Shown piece after piece: positions 51,001-57,000 of a stretch of DNA of 57,325 nucleotides (its first letter is position 1; the number at the start of each line of letters is the position of its first letter). The position numbers were made by a program. Location: assembly GCA_025497365.1 (NCBI GenBank), contig GCA_025497365.1_4955.1; one strand, given 5' to 3'. The stretch is from a phage.

Positions 51001-54000
51001 CGCCACGTTCCGGTAAAGGTACGATTGGTCGAATCATTCAGGCACTAGTAGGTGATGAAGCGTATGCAGGGATCACACTGGAGGGTTTAGCCAGTGATGC
51101 GGTACTTGAAACTGTGCTGGATAAATCTGTACTGTTTATCGGTGATGCTCACAGTGTGTCCGGGCCTGATCGCAACCGAATTCTGGACCGTTTCAAATCT
51201 ATTACAGGTTGTGATGCGATTCCGGTTAATCGTAAGTATAAAGGTGCATGGAACGGTCGTTTACCGGGACGTATGACACTGGCTGCTAACAACATCCCGG
51301 CATTTGCTGATGATTCAGGTGCAATGGCTAACCGTTTGCTGATCCTACCATTCAACATTTCGTTCCTGGGTCGTGAAGATACCACTCTGGAAGCACGACT
51401 GATGAAAGAACTACCGGGGATCTGTAACTGGGCGATTGAAGGTTTGCAACGGTTACGTGCAAACGGACGGTTTACTGAACCAAAAGCAAGTCTGGAAGAA
51501 CGTCAGGAAATTATGGATCAACAATCACCACTTAGAAGTTTTATCAGAGATTGTTGCGAATTGGTATCTGATGGTGAGGTGCATACTGAAGAACTCTATG
51601 GTCGTTATCGTCTCTGGAAAACACAGGAAGGTGGTCCAGCAATGACTAAAACTGCATTTAGTCGGGCATTTAAATCCACCCTTCGTGGTAAAGTGAAAAA
51701 AGACGTTGTTAATATAAATAACGTACGATTAAACGGTTTCAGGGGTATTCGTCTTCTCCCTTTTCAGTCAACAGCTAATGTAGTGCCTTTCCCACCTGCG
51801 AGTAACGGTTAGTCATTGCACAAGGATGTGTAAAATAATTCTTGACGAATTACAGATGTGTGCGCTATAGTCTGTACATCAAGTGAACAAGGAGTGATTG
51901 TTATGAAACCACGCTACCGGTTAATGAGACTTTCACAGTGTCCTAACGGAACACGGTTTTATTTTTATCGTCTGAAGCAACTATTACCTTTCACGTTAAT
52001 TGCTAACAGCTTCAAGAAACACGAAAGTATTTATCATGAAGGTCACGATTTTAACATAACCGCGCGAAAATACAGAACGTCTATTCATAAATTTGTATGG
52101 GCTAAGGTGAACTAAAATGAAAATTGTTGATGCAGAATTTAGTTACATTGGTGATTTTAAAAATGGTTGTGAAATTAAGTCACCGTGTGAAGTTGTGTAT
52201 TATAACCGTAATCATTATAAATGGTGTGGTGATTTCCCAAAAATAGTCCCTGCTGGTTCAAGTCCTATTGTAACTGGTGGTATTGGTAAAAACGGATGGG
52301 TACCAATTACAACAAACAACGATGTGCGTAACGTCTGGTTACCACAGGTTATTTTAATTGGTATTTGTTTGCTTGTTTTATTTTTATGGTGAACTAATTC
52401 TGGGTATGGTCTATGTCAAAATTCTATCCTGAATACAGGAAAGGTAAAAAACCATGAAAAACATATTTGACCGTTTAATTACTGTTATTGTTTTCCTTGT
52501 ATCAGTAACGCTCGCGTCTTGCATTGTCGGACTAATGACCCGTGGTAATCATGCGGAAACACCGTGGTGGTTTCTGGCTGGTCTTGGATTATTAGCGGCT
52601 GCTGCATCAATTGGCGCTTGCATGTGGGGAGTGAAAAATGATCATGACTGAGTTCGGTGCTGTAATCAAAAAAGAAGACCGTTATGCACATATTAATACC
52701 CGGATTACCTGGGTTGATATCAGTGAAGCTACTCTGTTCAGTTCAACTTACATGGCTGGTGTTGCACTTAAAGCACTTCGTGATCAAGGTTTCAATTGCA
52801 GAAAAGTAACAATTGCGCCTGTTAAAATCACGCGGATCGTCGAGGAGACAGAAGGATGAAAATTGTCTGGTCATTATTCGACGGTTCCGGGATTATGGGC
52901 TTACCGTGGGCGATACATGGATATCAGGTTTATTGTTTTAATGCTGATTCCGCTAATCACGGGGAATACTTTATTAAAGCTGATCACCCCAATCTTCATT
53001 ACGTTAATCAATGGATTGATCCACAGTTTGCAATTAAGCAGGAAATACTGGGAACACCTTTACCGTCAATTATTTTCGGCTTCCCGGATTGCACCCTGTT
53101 TGCTCAAAGCGGTTCGCAACATGACCGGGATGACGCTGAACTACAGTATGCACTGGCAAACGCAAAACTGATCCGTGAACTCGGAGAACGTTATAACGTA
53201 CCCTGGATGATCGAAAACCCTGTCGGTGCTTTATCACGTCCTGAAATGATGGGGACACCTGACGCTTATTTTCATCCGTGGGAATATGGCGGTTATATGA
53301 CAACAGATGATAAACCTTTTCACCCTAAAATGCCGATGTTTGACGGATACACGAAGAAAACATGTCTGTGGTTCGGTAACGGTTTCAGAATGCCTGAAAA
53401 ACGTCCCGGACCGATTAATATTGGTTTCTTCTGGGGCTGGAAATATCTGGGTGGTAAATCTGAAACAACTAAACAGTTACGTTCATTAACCCCGCGTGGC
53501 TTTGCTCGCGCTGTATTTGAGGCTAATAAACAATGATAATAGTCGTTACAGGCGGTCGTGACTTCAACGACAGAACAGCGGTATTTTCAGCATTAGGGTT
53601 ACTTCACAAACAATTCCCGGTTACCGAACTGATTGAAGGCGGTGCATCAGGTGTTGATAACCTGTGTAAGCAATGGGCGCAATTACACGGTATTCCTGTC
53701 CGCAGTTGTCCAGCAGCGTGGAACGATCTGACAGTGCCGGGTGCAGTAGTCAAACAAGGTAAGAACGGGCCTTATAACGCTGTTGCAGGTCATCAACGTA
53801 ATCAGGCGATGTTAGAGGGTGAGCCACGTCCTACATATGGTGTTGTGTTCCCCGGTGGTCGTGGTACTGCTGATATGCACCGTCGCATGTTGAAAGCTGG
53901 TTTAACTGTGTGGGTTCCATATGGTTGATGCGTATCATATTACTAAAGTGGAAAACCGTGAAAGTATCCTGATGAAAGGTATCGTACCGGGGATAAAACT

Positions 54001-57000
54001 TCTTCGTGGTGATCTTGATTTTCAACGTGGGTTAGGTGTTCCCATCCGTTCCTGTGGTTATGATAAGTTATACGGTTTTCACCCCGTGTTCATTACCTTT
54101 AATCCTGTTGAGGCTATATCAATAATGGGTTATCGTGGTTCTGCTGATGAATGGTGTGTTGCTGTTATAAACGCTACTAATTTACAACATAAACCCGGTC
54201 GTTTTTCGTGGGAGTCAATCACTGATTATGTACCTGCTGATTGTATAAAACGTTTCGAACCGCTGACCAACTTCTTAAAATAATTCTTGACAGATTACCA
54301 ACCTTCTCCGATAATTAGCCTCAGTTAACACACATGAGGCTAAACACAAATGGCTAACATTAACTCCCTTCGCAAGCTATCTGATACCGATAAAACCAAC
54401 GTAAAACGTGGTAACGCGTATCGTATTGATCCGCGTATCATCAAGATTCGCCCAGGACATAACCCACGCGGTGTATTTACCGACAACTACTGGGAAACCG
54501 AAGCAGCACTGGCACACATTGAAAACTTTCGTCAGGCTTATACTAACGGTGATTTCGTTCCACCGATCGTGGTACAGGTTGTTGACGGTGTTCCGTATGT
54601 CCAGGATGGTGAGCATCGTTTACGTGGCGTGTTAGCAGCTATTGAAGCCGGGACGCCGATTCTGACAGTAGACGTTGTTGAATCGTCCGGTGACGAACTA
54701 CAACAGACCCTGACACTATTAAAAGGTAATGAGGGTAAACCGTGGTCACCCGTTGAACGTGCTGTTATTTACGGTCGTTTCCGTTCATACGGCATGAGTG
54801 TTGAGCAGATCGCTACACAGGTCGGTAAAACCGTCCAACACGTTTACGAACAACTGAATATTCTTGATATGCCACTGGAACTTAAACGTCGTATTCAGAA
54901 CGGTGAAATCAGCGCATCAGCAGCCATTCGCCAGTTTAAAGCAGGTGATAAAGAACCAGTAGTAACGCGTCGTCCGCCTGCTAAACTGGTACGGTCCGCA
55001 GTGGAAGCAATCCGTGGTGAATGGTCTGTAACCCGTTCGGAAGGTGGTAAAGTCCTGGTTGAACTTACCGCTGAACAGTTTGAAGCGTTAAAAGCACTGA
55101 AGGAGCACCAGTTATGAAAAACCGTAAAGCAAAGATTCTGTTAGTTCGTAGAAACGGTCCCGGCGTCTGGCAGTGGGTGAGACTCAGCAATCGACGAATG
55201 GGGTTAATGAAATATTACGGGATGATGGTTGGTGGTTTTTGCAAAAAGCCCAGCGCGGCGCAAAACCGCTGGAAAAACCACCTGCGTACTAAAGGAGACT
55301 AGTTTATGTCAGACAACTTAACATCAATTTACGGTACGTTGACCTGTCGTTCTAAATTTAAACCGTTGACAAAAGAAGAAGAACGTCAGTGTAAGTTCAA
55401 TAACAGTTTTCCCAGCGTTAATGAAAATCGTTGGATTGCCAAACTAACCGGGAGTAAGAAGAAATGACTATCCGACTGATGAATCCAACCGTTGCCCGTG
55501 ATATTAAACCAGGTGACAAGATTGAAGTATTTAACGAATGGTACTGGGTACGCTATATCAATTACCACGGGTCACAGATTACGCTTCGTTTACAACCGGA
55601 AGACGAACCGCTATCACCATTTTGCGAAAACGACCGCGTTGTGGTTACAGTACCAGAAGATCTAATGATTGATGTCGAATGTAACTAACAGGTTCCCTCG
55701 TAACGGTTTAAAATGGTCCGCACGAGATCTGGCGTTATTAAAAATTAATGCAGGAAAGATCAGTGCGGATGAAATAGCGTATTACCTTCGCCGGGACGTT
55801 GAAGCGGTGCACATTAAAGCGTCACGTCTCGGTATATCACTGGTAACCAATAAATGTAAACGTGGTCATGCGCGAGTTTACCAAAAAGGTAGATGGCGCT
55901 GTCCTGAGTGTAGAAAATTAAAAGGGTATTGAATATGACACCTGAACAATTCGCAACAGCAGCACACGGTGATCAACTTCGTAAGTACACCAATGACCCA
56001 TATGTTAACCACTGCCGGAACGTTGCTGAACTGGTTAAACGCTATGGTGGTACGCCGGATATGGTTACCGCTGCCTGGCTGCATGACGTCGTTGAAGATA
56101 CTCCCGTGACTGTGGGTGATGTGTGTTCGCAATTCGGTGAAACTGTGGCACGTTATGTTGATCAGCTTACTGATGTGAGTCGTCCACACCACGGCAACCG
56201 CGTTAAGCGTAAAGCACGGGACATCGACCATTTATCACGGGCTGAACCTGTGGTAAAAACCATAAAACTGTGTGATCTGCTGGATAACACCTCTTCAATT
56301 GTCCGACACGATCCGAAGTTTGCTGTAACATACCTGGCTGAAAAACAAATCATGCTTGTTCACCTGTCAGACGCCAGTAATCAGGAGTTATACGCGCTTG
56401 TTGAGCGTGAATTGTTTAAAGCCAAATACAAACTAACGAACGTCCAGTTAACCGCGTTTGACAAACACTACGACGCACTGGTTAAAGCGATGGGGGAGTT
56501 GTGATCATGAATAAAGCATCACCTGTAGAAATACGTAAATGTCTTGAAATGGCAAATAGTCTTGCACATGCCGGGATTAGATTTGTTCCTGTACCAGTAA
56601 CCAGTGATGATGAATTTAATTCGCTGGTTTCTCATTCTTACGGGATACTGGACAAAATAGCAGACGATTGTGATACGACTAACCGCCAGTTCGAAAGCCT
56701 CAGCAACCACAAACATCACTTCATCAACGGCACTTGCGTAGAGTGCCTGAAAAGTGAATAACTACCTGTTCATACTATTCATCAGTGCGCTCTATGTGGC
56801 GCACGTTTTCTATGAGGTGTACCGATGAGTTTGTTTCAATGTGAAAACTGTGGGTGTGTTGAAAATACAGCTCTGTCTTCTCAGGGGTTTAACGGTTTCT
56901 TTGAAAAATTATACGACTGGTCATATGCACCTGAAAGGAAAGGTAAACGATTATGTTCAGCGTGTGGACCTGTTAAATACAGTGATGGTAATAATACTGA

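What the first reader, a model, noticed from the sequence alone, without database searches (positions are those of the whole stretch)
52856..55117. Compact C5-methyltransferase-like protein beside DUF2493-like and ParB-like proteins
The 226-aa product has the order and spacing of C5-cytosine methyltransferase motifs I, IV (PDC instead of PPCQ) and VI but is too short to hold a normal target-recognition domain. It is translationally coupled to a DUF2493/SLOG-like nucleotide-binding protein and followed by a ParB-like protein. The trio may form a non-canonical DNA or nucleotide modification module; a methyltransferase without a recognition domain might act non-specifically or on a free nucleotide.
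Basis: partly seen in the sequence, partly recalled or inferred. Interest (0 to 1): 0.65.

Follow-up and report, generated by a model that had tools for sequence, protein, structure and literature searches.

The report
Compact orphan phage cytosine methyltransferase gene
The 226-residue protein is a member of a very common, already annotated family of unusually small phage DNA cytosine-methyltransferase-like enzymes, and its SLOG and ParB-like neighbours are unrelated, independently gained and lost genes that do not form a three-part modification machine with it.

Summary

The "trio module" reading is not supported. Among 80 viral loci encoding family members, ParB is nearby in 10 and SLOG in 6. 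Close relatives show every combination: 9NA lacks SLOG and Bas82 lacks the MTase. ParB has its own conserved promoter, and an overlooked 120-aa ORF lies in between.

The family (phrog_757) occurs in 1,492 of 50,697 phage records. It is already annotated as a DNA cytosine methyltransferase, including this exact sequence. I found no biochemical data. The likeliest function is an orphan DNA m5C methyltransferase. Interest is low to moderate.

The parts
51842..51871 (+). sigma70-like promoter candidate (TTGACG-18-TATAGT, 10/12) just downstream of the primase gene; possible start of the small-gene operon that contains the MTase-like gene
   Evidence: Consensus scan only; the number of promoter-like sites in the region does not exceed shuffles, so this is weak.
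52638..52859 (+). 73-aa ORF (phrog_26050, unknown function) whose stop overlaps the MTase start (ATGA)
   Evidence: Found with the MTase only in 9NA-like loci (7/80). Retained in Bas82, which lacks the MTase.
52856..53536 (+). 226-aa compact C5-cytosine-methyltransferase-like protein (phrog_757). Motif I FDGSG at 8-12, motif IV FPDC (Cys79), motif VI ENPVG at 120-124, motif VIII-like YTKKTCLW at 165-172, mini-TRD at about 173-208, motif IX RSLTPRGFARAV at 209-220, no motif X
53533..53928 (+). 131-aa SLOG-fold protein (Pfam YAcAr PF10686; phrog_289); start overlaps the MTase stop (ATGA). The sequence shows GGASGVD and PGGRGTAD motifs.
   Evidence: Absent from 9NA; present in MTase-less Bas82.
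53921..54283 (+). 120-aa ORF of unknown function, 8-nt overlap with the SLOG stop.
54287..54315 (+). near-consensus sigma70 promoter TTGACA-17-GATAAT (11/12) immediately upstream of ParB
   Evidence: Conserved in 9NA and Klebsiella phage BU9.
54316..54343 (+). inverted repeat TAGCCTCA-(11 nt)-TGAGGCTA between the -10 box and the ParB start codon; candidate operator or 5'-UTR hairpin
   Evidence: Read from the sequence. Conserved in 9NA and BU9, with a T.A to C.G double change at the stem base in BU9. Function not tested.
54350..55117 (+). 255-aa ParB-like protein (ParB/Srx-type N-terminal region with DGEHRLRG, plus the ParB HTH)
   Evidence: PF17762 E 1.3e-6; phrog_1033 E 8.5e-60; TIGR00180 below cut-off

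Best explanation
ORF 52856-53536 encodes a member of a large, stand-alone ('orphan') family of miniature phage and prophage DNA cytosine-C5 methyltransferases. It keeps the SAM-binding Rossmann core and the catalytic Cys (motif IV) and Glu (motif VI), so it most likely methylates cytosine C5 by the standard mechanism: covalent Cys attack at C6, then methyl transfer from SAM. It has only a stub of about 40 residues in place of the target-recognition domain and ends before motif X. This gives it a DNMT3-like minimal architecture, presumably with a short or relaxed recognition sequence. It is expressed from an operon of small early genes downstream of the primase gene, and it probably marks replicating phage DNA against some host restriction or other cytosine-sensitive defence. 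The SLOG, 120-aa and ParB-like genes downstream are separate accessory genes. ParB has its own promoter, and none of them is needed by or linked to the methyltransferase. Shown here: fold, motifs, family size, context variability. Inferred: catalytic activity, DNA as substrate, anti-restriction role, short specificity.
Against: No Pfam PF00145 or NCBIfam hit for this protein, and only 5 of 82 members touch PF00145, weakly. Profile searches against PDB sequences find no C5-MTase. Motif X, which lines the SAM methionine pocket in M.HhaI (N304; PMC12783734 and established structure knowledge), is absent, so normal cofactor binding is unproven. The motif VIII arginines are replaced by Y-x-K-x-T. 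I found no methylation or biochemical data for any member. The BASEL study found no simple link between MTase genes and restriction resistance in Drexlerviridae (PMC8594841). The phage genome still avoids C-containing palindromes.
Confidence: 0.62

Rival explanations
1. The enzyme is a sequence-non-specific, or nearly so (1-2 nt context), DNA cytosine-C5 methyltransferase, because it lacks a real recognition domain. This is the first reader's suggestion and is analogous to the non-specific adenine MTase M.EcoGII.
For: The motif VIII to IX spacer is only 33-49 aa family-wide. The closest structural match is DNMT3, which reads only CpG with a small TRD loop. A non-specific prophage adenine MTase exists as precedent (PMC5778455, listed).
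Against: The mini-TRD is the more variable part of the C-terminal half (entropy 2.66 bits against about 1.4-1.5 for the motifs), as expected if it tunes specificity. The phage genome shows strong avoidance of CCCGGG, GGCGCC, GGTACC, CAGCTG and TCCGGA, which would be unnecessary if all cytosines were protected. Global 5mC would also expose the phage to McrBC/McrA-type restriction (established knowledge).
Confidence: 0.15
2. The MTase-like, SLOG and ParB-like proteins act together as a non-canonical DNA or nucleotide modification module.
For: The genes are adjacent on one strand, with overlapping stop and start codons for 73aa/MTase/SLOG/120aa. ParB-domain proteins are known to be frequent neighbours or fusion partners of phage DNA-modifying MTases, with unknown role (PMC12783734). 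SLOG domains bind nucleotides (Pfam PF10686 description).
Against: Co-occurrence is lineage-restricted: ParB in 10/80 loci and SLOG in 6/80, even though these 80 are the loci closest to the query. 9NA lacks SLOG, Bas82 lacks the MTase but keeps SLOG and ParB, and BU9 has other genes interleaved. ParB has its own conserved promoter. No fused architectures link the three.
Confidence: 0.05
3. The protein uses the C5-MTase fold for something other than DNA methylation. Options are transfer of a different group (for example carboxymethyl from host-made Cx-SAM, as in CmoX), action on RNA/tRNA (as in DNMT2), or action on a free nucleotide.
Against: The CmoX signature is not met: no SPPC motif and no motif X Arg, because R218 lies in motif IX by hhalign and is not conserved in the family (FAxAV). 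No CmoA or ligase gene is annotated in this phage type. The top matches are DNA enzymes. dNMP methylases of phages belong to the unrelated thymidylate-synthase fold (established knowledge).
Confidence: 0.1
4. The protein is a catalytically dead, DNMT3L-like remnant that acts as a DNA-binding or regulatory factor.
For: Motif X is missing, the TRD is truncated, and Pfam and NCBIfam models do not recognise it.
Against: The catalytic Cys and Glu, the motif I glycines and the motif II/III acidic positions are conserved across more than 1,700 representatives down to 28% identity. That pattern indicates selection for catalysis.
Confidence: 0.05

Closest known systems
Bacterial/phage DNA (cytosine-5) methyltransferases of the M.HhaI / M.HaeIII type (Pfam PF00145, EC 2.1.1.37)
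   Different: About 100 residues shorter. The VIII to IX spacer is 44 aa against 111-126. There is no motif X. Motif VIII has Y-x-K-x-T where the canonical enzymes have Q-x-R-x-R. It is not detected by the PF00145 HMM.
DNMT3A/DNMT3B catalytic domains (eukaryotic de novo C5-MTases)
   Different: DNMT3 retains motif X and a 70-aa VIII to IX spacer, and it works as a DNMT3L-assisted tetramer on chromatin. Sequence identity is only 12-16%. The oligomeric state of the phage protein is unknown.
phrog_757 / NCBI 'DNA cytosine methyltransferase' of T1-like (Drexlerviridae, Webervirus), Dhillonvirus, rV5-like and 9NA-like phages; 9NA gp78
   Same: This is the family the protein belongs to (E 1.8e-79, full-length). 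The identical sequence is already deposited (HCP1922347.1), and 9NA gp78 is in the same 90% cluster.
   Different: Nothing architectural. Only the local FPDC variant of the FPPC motif, Asn in place of Asp at position 29, and the particular neighbours.
CmoX, phage DNA cytosine C5-carboxymethyltransferase (PDB 8yf3; PMC12783734)
   Different: CmoX is about 370 aa with a full TRD, an SPPC motif and a motif X Arg350 that binds the carboxyl group. It also co-occurs with CmoA and an amide ligase. None of these features is present here.
M.EcoGII-type non-specific orphan prophage MTase (PMC5778455)
   Same: An orphan, prophage- or phage-borne DNA MTase that may have relaxed specificity.
   Different: M.EcoGII is an N6-adenine enzyme of a different MTase class. 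Relaxed specificity for the present family is only a hypothesis.

Membership tests
DNA (cytosine-5) methyltransferase (PF00145-type) | Motif I F-x-G-x-G SAM-binding loop after strand beta1 | tested here: met
   SLFDGSG at residues 6-12; D9 G10 S11 G12 invariant in A1; aligned to HhaI, HaeIII and DNMT3A motif I by hhalign.
DNA (cytosine-5) methyltransferase (PF00145-type) | Motif IV Pro-Cys with the catalytic cysteine | tested here: met
   GFPDC, with Cys79 invariant in 82 diverse members; family consensus FPPCT; aligned to GFPCQ/GPPCQ/GSPCN.
DNA (cytosine-5) methyltransferase (PF00145-type) | Motif VI E-N-V with the catalytic glutamate | tested here: met
   ENPVG at 120-124; E120 and P122 invariant, N121 95%.
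DNA (cytosine-5) methyltransferase (PF00145-type) | Motif VIII Q-x-R-x-R (arginines that contact the flipped cytosine) | tested here: inconclusive
   The position is occupied by the invariant Y165-x-K167-x-T169...W172. hhalign aligns it to DNMT3A HRARYFW, but the register is uncertain by one residue. Lys may substitute for Arg (inference).
DNA (cytosine-5) methyltransferase (PF00145-type) | Variable target-recognition domain of about 70-180 aa between motifs VIII and IX | tested here: not met
   44 aa in the window protein and 33-49 aa across the family, against 70 (DNMT3A), 111-126 (HhaI, HaeIII, Dcm) and 183 (DNMT2).
DNA (cytosine-5) methyltransferase (PF00145-type) | Motif IX R-x-x-T-x-R-E-x-A-R | tested here: met
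   R209-S-L-T212-P-R214-G-F-A217-R218 aligns to HaeIII RRLTVRECAR and HhaI RKLHPRECAR. R209, P213, G215 and A219 are 94% or more conserved.
DNA (cytosine-5) methyltransferase (PF00145-type) | Motif X G-N-[AS]-V helix completing the SAM pocket | tested here: not met
   The protein ends 18 aa after the start of motif IX, whereas motif X begins 31-35 aa after motif IX in the references. Family tails are 17-45 aa with no GNAV-like motif. The template motif X is left unaligned.
DNA (cytosine-5) methyltransferase (PF00145-type) | Score above the Pfam/NCBIfam curated threshold | tested here: not met
   No hit at E<=1. 5 of 82 members hit PF00145, best E 0.0067.
DNA (cytosine-5) methyltransferase (PF00145-type) | C5-MTase three-dimensional fold | tested here: met
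DNA (cytosine-5) methyltransferase (PF00145-type) | SAM-dependent formation of 5-methylcytosine in DNA | not testable with these tools
   No experimental report found for any family member.
phrog_757 compact phage 'DNA methyltransferase' family | Full-length profile match | tested here: met
   E 1.8e-79, residues 1-225 on profile positions 14-219 of 247. 699 homolog clusters of the same length.
CmoX DNA cytosine carboxymethyltransferase | SPPC motif, plus Arg at the HhaI-N304 (motif X) position, plus a CmoA partner | tested here: not met
   The motif is FPDC (family FPPC). There is no motif X, and R218 lies in motif IX and is not conserved. No CmoA is annotated in close relatives. Criteria are from PMC12783734.
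Restriction-modification system | Cognate endonuclease (or Vsr) encoded next to the MTase | tested here: not met
   The neighbours are small phage genes, SLOG, ParB, helicases, NinG and exonucleases. The prophage copy has none. There are no PADLOC hits.
SLOG superfamily, YAcAr/DUF2493 (PF10686) | Profile match above the gathering score | tested here: met
   70.5 bits against a 28.2 cut-off, E 1e-19, residues 1-64. phrog_289 E 2.7e-23. The sequence also shows GGASGVD and PGGRGTAD.
ParB/Srx-like proteins | ParB HTH domain and an N-terminal ParB-type Arg-rich motif | tested here: met
   PF17762 gives 28.9 bits against a 22.6 cut-off. phrog_1033 E 8.5e-60. DGEHRLRG is visible in the translation. 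TIGR00180 is below its cut-off (37.2 against 58.45), so this is ParB-like and not a canonical partition ParB. No ParA or parS was sought.
DarT/ADP-ribosyltransferase (for the 120-aa ORF) | ART fold with an H-Y-E-type triad | tested here: inconclusive

The most novel reading that the evidence does not exclude
The family may be a natural 'minimal' cytosine-C5 methyltransferase. It would work without motif X and with a recognition stub of about 40 residues, perhaps as a DNMT3-like dimer, and methylate DNA with very short or relaxed specificity, or use a rebuilt cofactor pocket. It is present in about 3% of sequenced phage genomes and has never been characterised biochemically. The neighbouring SLOG and ParB genes would still be unrelated to it.
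Probability: 0.2. Interest if true: 0.5.

Novelty: already known. Interest (0 to 1): 0.22.

Why it matters
For this window it matters little. The gene is a routine orphan phage methyltransferase that databases already label as such, and the proposed three-gene modification module does not hold up.

One residual point deserves an experiment. This very common family (1,492 phage genomes; 1,751 representatives at 50% identity) is the smallest C5-MTase architecture I could document. It has no motif X and a stub in place of the TRD, and I found no activity or specificity data for it.

If it is active, it would define the minimal catalytic unit of cytosine-5 methylation. It could also help explain the patchy restriction sensitivity of T1-like, Dhillonvirus and 9NA-like phages used in phage therapy collections. 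Bas82, a natural relative that lacks the MTase gene, offers a ready comparison.

Tried and rejected
1. Sequence searches of the single protein and of two family profiles against PDB sequences found no C5-MTase. Only fold comparison and profile-profile alignment made the link.

2. CmoX-like carboxymethyltransferase idea, prompted by R218 in 'FARAV' and by the 8yf3 structural hit. Rejected because R218 maps to motif IX, is not conserved, there is no SPPC motif, and no CmoA or ligase gene is present.

3. Split or permuted enzyme with motif X supplied by a neighbouring small ORF. Rejected because the flanking small ORFs differ between phage lineages and none carries a GNAV-like motif.

5. Inferring the methylation target from k-mer depletion in the window. 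This showed only generic palindrome and CTAG avoidance, with CCWGG mildly low (z -4), and no specific candidate.

6. Looking for informative domain fusions in longer family members. Only one HNH insertion turned up.

7. PADLOC defence models: no hits.

8. The search for related loci with the diverse alignment A2 failed because it had no conserved stretch to search with. A1 was used instead, which biases the 80 loci toward close relatives. That bias makes the low ParB and SLOG co-occurrence conservative.

9. Literature searches for methylome or biochemical data on this family found none. Subscription-only papers, such as the Casjens 9NA genome papers, were not searchable.

10. Model coordinates are not exposed to the sandbox. 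I therefore could not check residue by residue whether the C-terminal helix occupies the place of the motif X helix.
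Full report
**What the window is**

The region 52400-55400 is 99.9% identical to Sashavirus BDX09P1. It is 83-97% identical, in parts, to Escherichia phages PJ16 and PDP46 and to Salmonella phages Sergei, Solent, Sasha and 9NA. The window is therefore the genome of a 9NA-like siphovirus of Enterobacteria. In those GenBank records the gene in question is already annotated 'C-5 cytosine-specific DNA methylase' or 'DNA methyltransferase'.

**Checking the observation**

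- The stop of an upstream 73-aa ORF overlaps the 226-aa start (ATGA).
- The 226-aa stop overlaps the 131-aa start (ATGA).

The 131-aa protein is a SLOG-family protein (PF10686 YAcAr, E 1e-19, above the curated cut-off; phrog_289). The 255-aa protein is ParB-like (PF17762 above cut-off; phrog_1033, E 8.5e-60).

**Is the 226-aa protein a C5-methyltransferase?**

Ordinary profile libraries do not recognise it.

- No Pfam or NCBIfam hit at E<=1.
- No PDB sequence hit with the protein or with family profiles.
- PHROGs places it full-length in phrog_757, 'DNA methyltransferase' (E 1.8e-79).

A search of 5.8 billion proteins found 699 clusters, nearly all 215-248 aa. An exhaustive HMM search of 1.84 billion representatives at 50% identity found 1,751 relatives (750 at E<=1e-10), again almost all 200-260 aa. 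The small size is therefore a family trait and not a truncation.

In 32 close homologs FDGSG, F76-P77-x-C79-T80 and E120-N121-P122-x-G124 are invariant or nearly so. In 82 members with 28-59% identity, C79, E120, P122, Y165, K167, T169, W172 and P180 remain invariant, and the motif IV consensus is the canonical FPPCT. The window's 'PDC' is thus a local variant.

An AlphaFold2 model is confident (pLDDT 91.4, pTM 0.89).

- Foldseek agrees.

A profile-profile alignment of the family with five canonical enzymes gives Prob 93%, E 2.8e-7. Three of them (HaeIII, DNMT3A, HhaI) were verified identical to PDB chains. The catalytic loop just after Cys79 is the least confident part of the model (block 81-90, pLDDT 63). 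This fits the mobile catalytic loop of canonical enzymes (established knowledge).

**Anatomy**

Motifs I, IV, VI and the VIII-like motif lie at almost the same positions as in M.HhaI, M.HaeIII, Dcm, DNMT3A and DNMT2.

- The VIII-like segment YTKKTCLWFGNGFRMP aligns to DNMT3A HRARYFWGNLPGMNRP.
- The C-terminal RSLTPRGFARAV aligns to motif IX (HaeIII RRLTVRECARV, HhaI RKLHPRECARV).
- From motif VIII to motif IX there are 44 residues (33-49 across the family). The references have 70 (DNMT3A), 111-126 (bacterial enzymes) and 183 (DNMT2).
- The chain ends 18 residues after motif IX begins (17-45 across the family). Motif X starts 31-35 residues after motif IX in every reference.

The family therefore has only a stub of a target-recognition domain and no motif X. 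The mini-TRD is more variable than the catalytic motifs (entropy 2.66 bits against about 1.4-1.5). I could not test whether the last helix (214-224, pLDDT about 96) takes the structural place of the motif X helix, because model coordinates are not exposed.

**Is the trio a module?**

The answer is no.

I fetched 80 IMG/VR loci encoding family members. These were the closest of 309, which biases toward the window's own context. I then called ORFs and searched them with the window's neighbouring proteins. ParB was present near the MTase in 10 loci, the 73-aa ORF in 7, SLOG in 6 and the primase in 7. These were essentially only the 9NA-like loci.

The commonest context (about 38 loci on contigs of about 50 kb, the size of T1-like phage genomes) is MTase, a small ORF, phrog_2684, DNA helicase phrog_2373, phrog_2794, and further on an endolysin. 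Other contexts include NinG/Rap, an SNF2 helicase, an exonuclease and a major tail protein. One copy lies in a lambdoid prophage between the CI/Cro region and the integrase, with no endonuclease or Vsr nearby.

Within the 9NA-like group every combination occurs:

| Phage | Gene order in this region |
|---|---|
| window | 73aa, MTase, SLOG, 120aa, ParB |
| PDP46 | 73aa, MTase, SLOG, 76aa, ParB |
| 9NA | MTase, gp79, HNH remnant, ParB (no SLOG) |
| Kpn BU9 | MTase, hypothetical, SLOG, HNH, ParB |
| KarinMuster Bas82 | 73aa, 65aa, SLOG, 76aa, ParB (no MTase) |

ParB is preceded by a near-consensus sigma70 promoter (TTGACA-17-GATAAT) and an inverted repeat. Both are conserved in 9NA and BU9, with a compensatory change in the stem. 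ParB therefore probably has its own transcription start. The 120-aa ORF in between is a rare accessory gene (5 clusters in 5.8e9 proteins) of unknown fold. Longer family members show no informative domain fusions, and none of the proteins matches PADLOC defence models.

**Distribution and prior knowledge**

tblastn finds the family in 1,492 of 50,697 phage records (Escherichia 576, Klebsiella 521, Salmonella 109 and others). These include T1-like phages, Webervirus, Dhillonvirus, Kagunavirus, rV5-like phages, Vequintavirinae (annotated 'Dcm') and JSE/RB49-like phages. The gene is mostly annotated as a DNA or cytosine methyltransferase. The exact window sequence is in NCBI as HCP1922347.1, 'DNA cytosine methyltransferase [Escherichia coli]', in the same 90% cluster as 9NA gp78.

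- The BASEL study notes that Drexlerviridae abundantly encode N6-adenine and/or C5-cytosine MTases. It found no simple link to restriction resistance (PMC8594841).
- Its follow-up reports that the MTase-less Bas82 is markedly sensitive to RM systems (10.1101/2024.09.12.612763).
- The CmoX paper notes that ParB-domain proteins are frequent, unexplained neighbours or fusion partners of phage DNA MTases (PMC12783734).
- I found no paper with activity or methylome data for this compact family.

**Mechanism**

The best-supported reading is an orphan, SAM-dependent DNA cytosine-C5 methyltransferase using the standard mechanism: Cys79 attacks C6 and Glu120 protonates N3.

- Shown: fold, motifs and their conservation.
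- Inferred: activity, DNA as substrate, and a short recognition sequence read by the mini-TRD.

The role would be to modify replicating phage DNA against some host defences.

The carboxymethyltransferase alternative fails its signature test. There is no SPPC motif and no motif X Arg. R218 lies in motif IX and is not conserved. No CmoA is annotated in relatives. Blanket non-specific methylation is not excluded, but it fits poorly with the strong avoidance of C-containing 6-bp palindromes in this genome. Counting both strands, CCCGGG is seen 2 times against 39 expected, GGCGCC 0 against 16.5 and GGTACC 2 against 27.5. A dead, DNMT3L-like protein is unlikely given the invariant catalytic residues.

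**Verdict**

- The MTase assignment is supported at the level of fold and motifs.
- The 'trio module' interpretation is not supported.
- The gene is an already annotated member of a very common orphan phage MTase family, so interest is low.
- The one point worth an experiment is that this abundant family lacks motif X and a real TRD and appears never to have been assayed.

Noticed in passing
window 53921-54283 (+): A 120-aa ORF between SLOG and ParB, overlapping the SLOG stop by 8 nt. It is a very rare protein (5 clusters in 5.8 billion) with the conserved motifs AYHIT, YD..Y..PVFITF and WES. It has a faint 17-residue match to the DarT N-terminus (E 0.24). The AF2 model is poor and gave no fold match.
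   Followed up: partly
window 54287-54346 (+): A near-consensus sigma70 promoter (TTGACA-17-GATAAT) followed by the inverted repeat TAGCCTCA-11 nt-TGAGGCTA, directly upstream of the ParB start. Both are conserved in 9NA and Klebsiella phage BU9, with a compensatory T.A to C.G change. This could be a ParB autoregulatory operator or a 5'-UTR hairpin. PDP46 and Bas82 have a different small gene at this position.
   Followed up: partly
window 40255-40773 (-) and 40769-41119 (-): A second orphan methyltransferase: a Dam-like N6-adenine MTase, 95% identical to PDP46_0067. It overlaps a DNPH1-like 2'-deoxynucleoside 5'-phosphate N-hydrolase gene (98% to PDP46_0068), next to the DNA polymerase gene. 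Identified only through the relative's annotation and tblastn.
   Followed up: partly
window ~15590-16204 (+) and 14922-15422 (-): A homolog (69% identity) of a protein annotated 'nucleotide modification associated domain 1' (Nmad1) in PDP46, divergently placed next to a dUTPase gene. The BASEL authors saw no recognisable DNA-modification locus in this phage group, so this gene may merit a look.
   Followed up: no
window 55929-56504 (+): A 191-aa HD_4/HD-domain protein (PF13328 E 5.5e-15; phrog_990), annotated in PDP46 as 'RelA/SpoT family (p)ppGpp synthetase'. It contains only the hydrolase-type HD domain, so it is more likely a small alarmone hydrolase-like enzyme.
   Followed up: no
window 49458-51812 (+): A 784-aa primase-polymerase/helicase fusion with an NrS-1 polymerase helix-bundle domain (PF22763 E 8.5e-22), D5_N and DUF5906 (phrog_1829). 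It lies just upstream of the small-gene operon that holds the MTase-like gene.
   Followed up: no
whole window: Strong under-representation of 6-bp palindromes, with counts over both strands: CCCGGG 2 against 39 expected, GGCGCC 0 against 16.5, GGTACC 2 against 27.5, CAGCTG 4 against 28, TCCGGA 4 against 27 and AAGCTT 2 against 20. CTAG is also low (28 against 107). This indicates ongoing selection by restriction enzymes despite two phage-encoded MTases.
   Followed up: partly
L084 (Escherichia phage KarinMuster Bas82, PQ850612.1 45529-50776): A close relative that precisely lacks the MTase-like gene while keeping the 73-aa gene, SLOG and ParB. [quoted passage not shown]
   Followed up: partly
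L011-L074 (IMG/VR contigs of about 49-51 kb): In the T1-like phage context the MTase-like gene is consistently followed by a small ORF, phrog_2684 (unknown function), DNA helicase phrog_2373 and phrog_2794 (unknown function). This is a conserved arrangement unrelated to the one in the window.
   Followed up: partly
H28, MG065663.1 Campylobacter phage A134 (35479-36153): A record labelled as a Campylobacter jejuni phage carries a homolog 59% identical to the enterobacterial phage protein, and 36 'Campylobacter' records match in all. This is unexpected for the stated host and may reflect mislabelled or contaminating enterobacterial phages.
   Followed up: no
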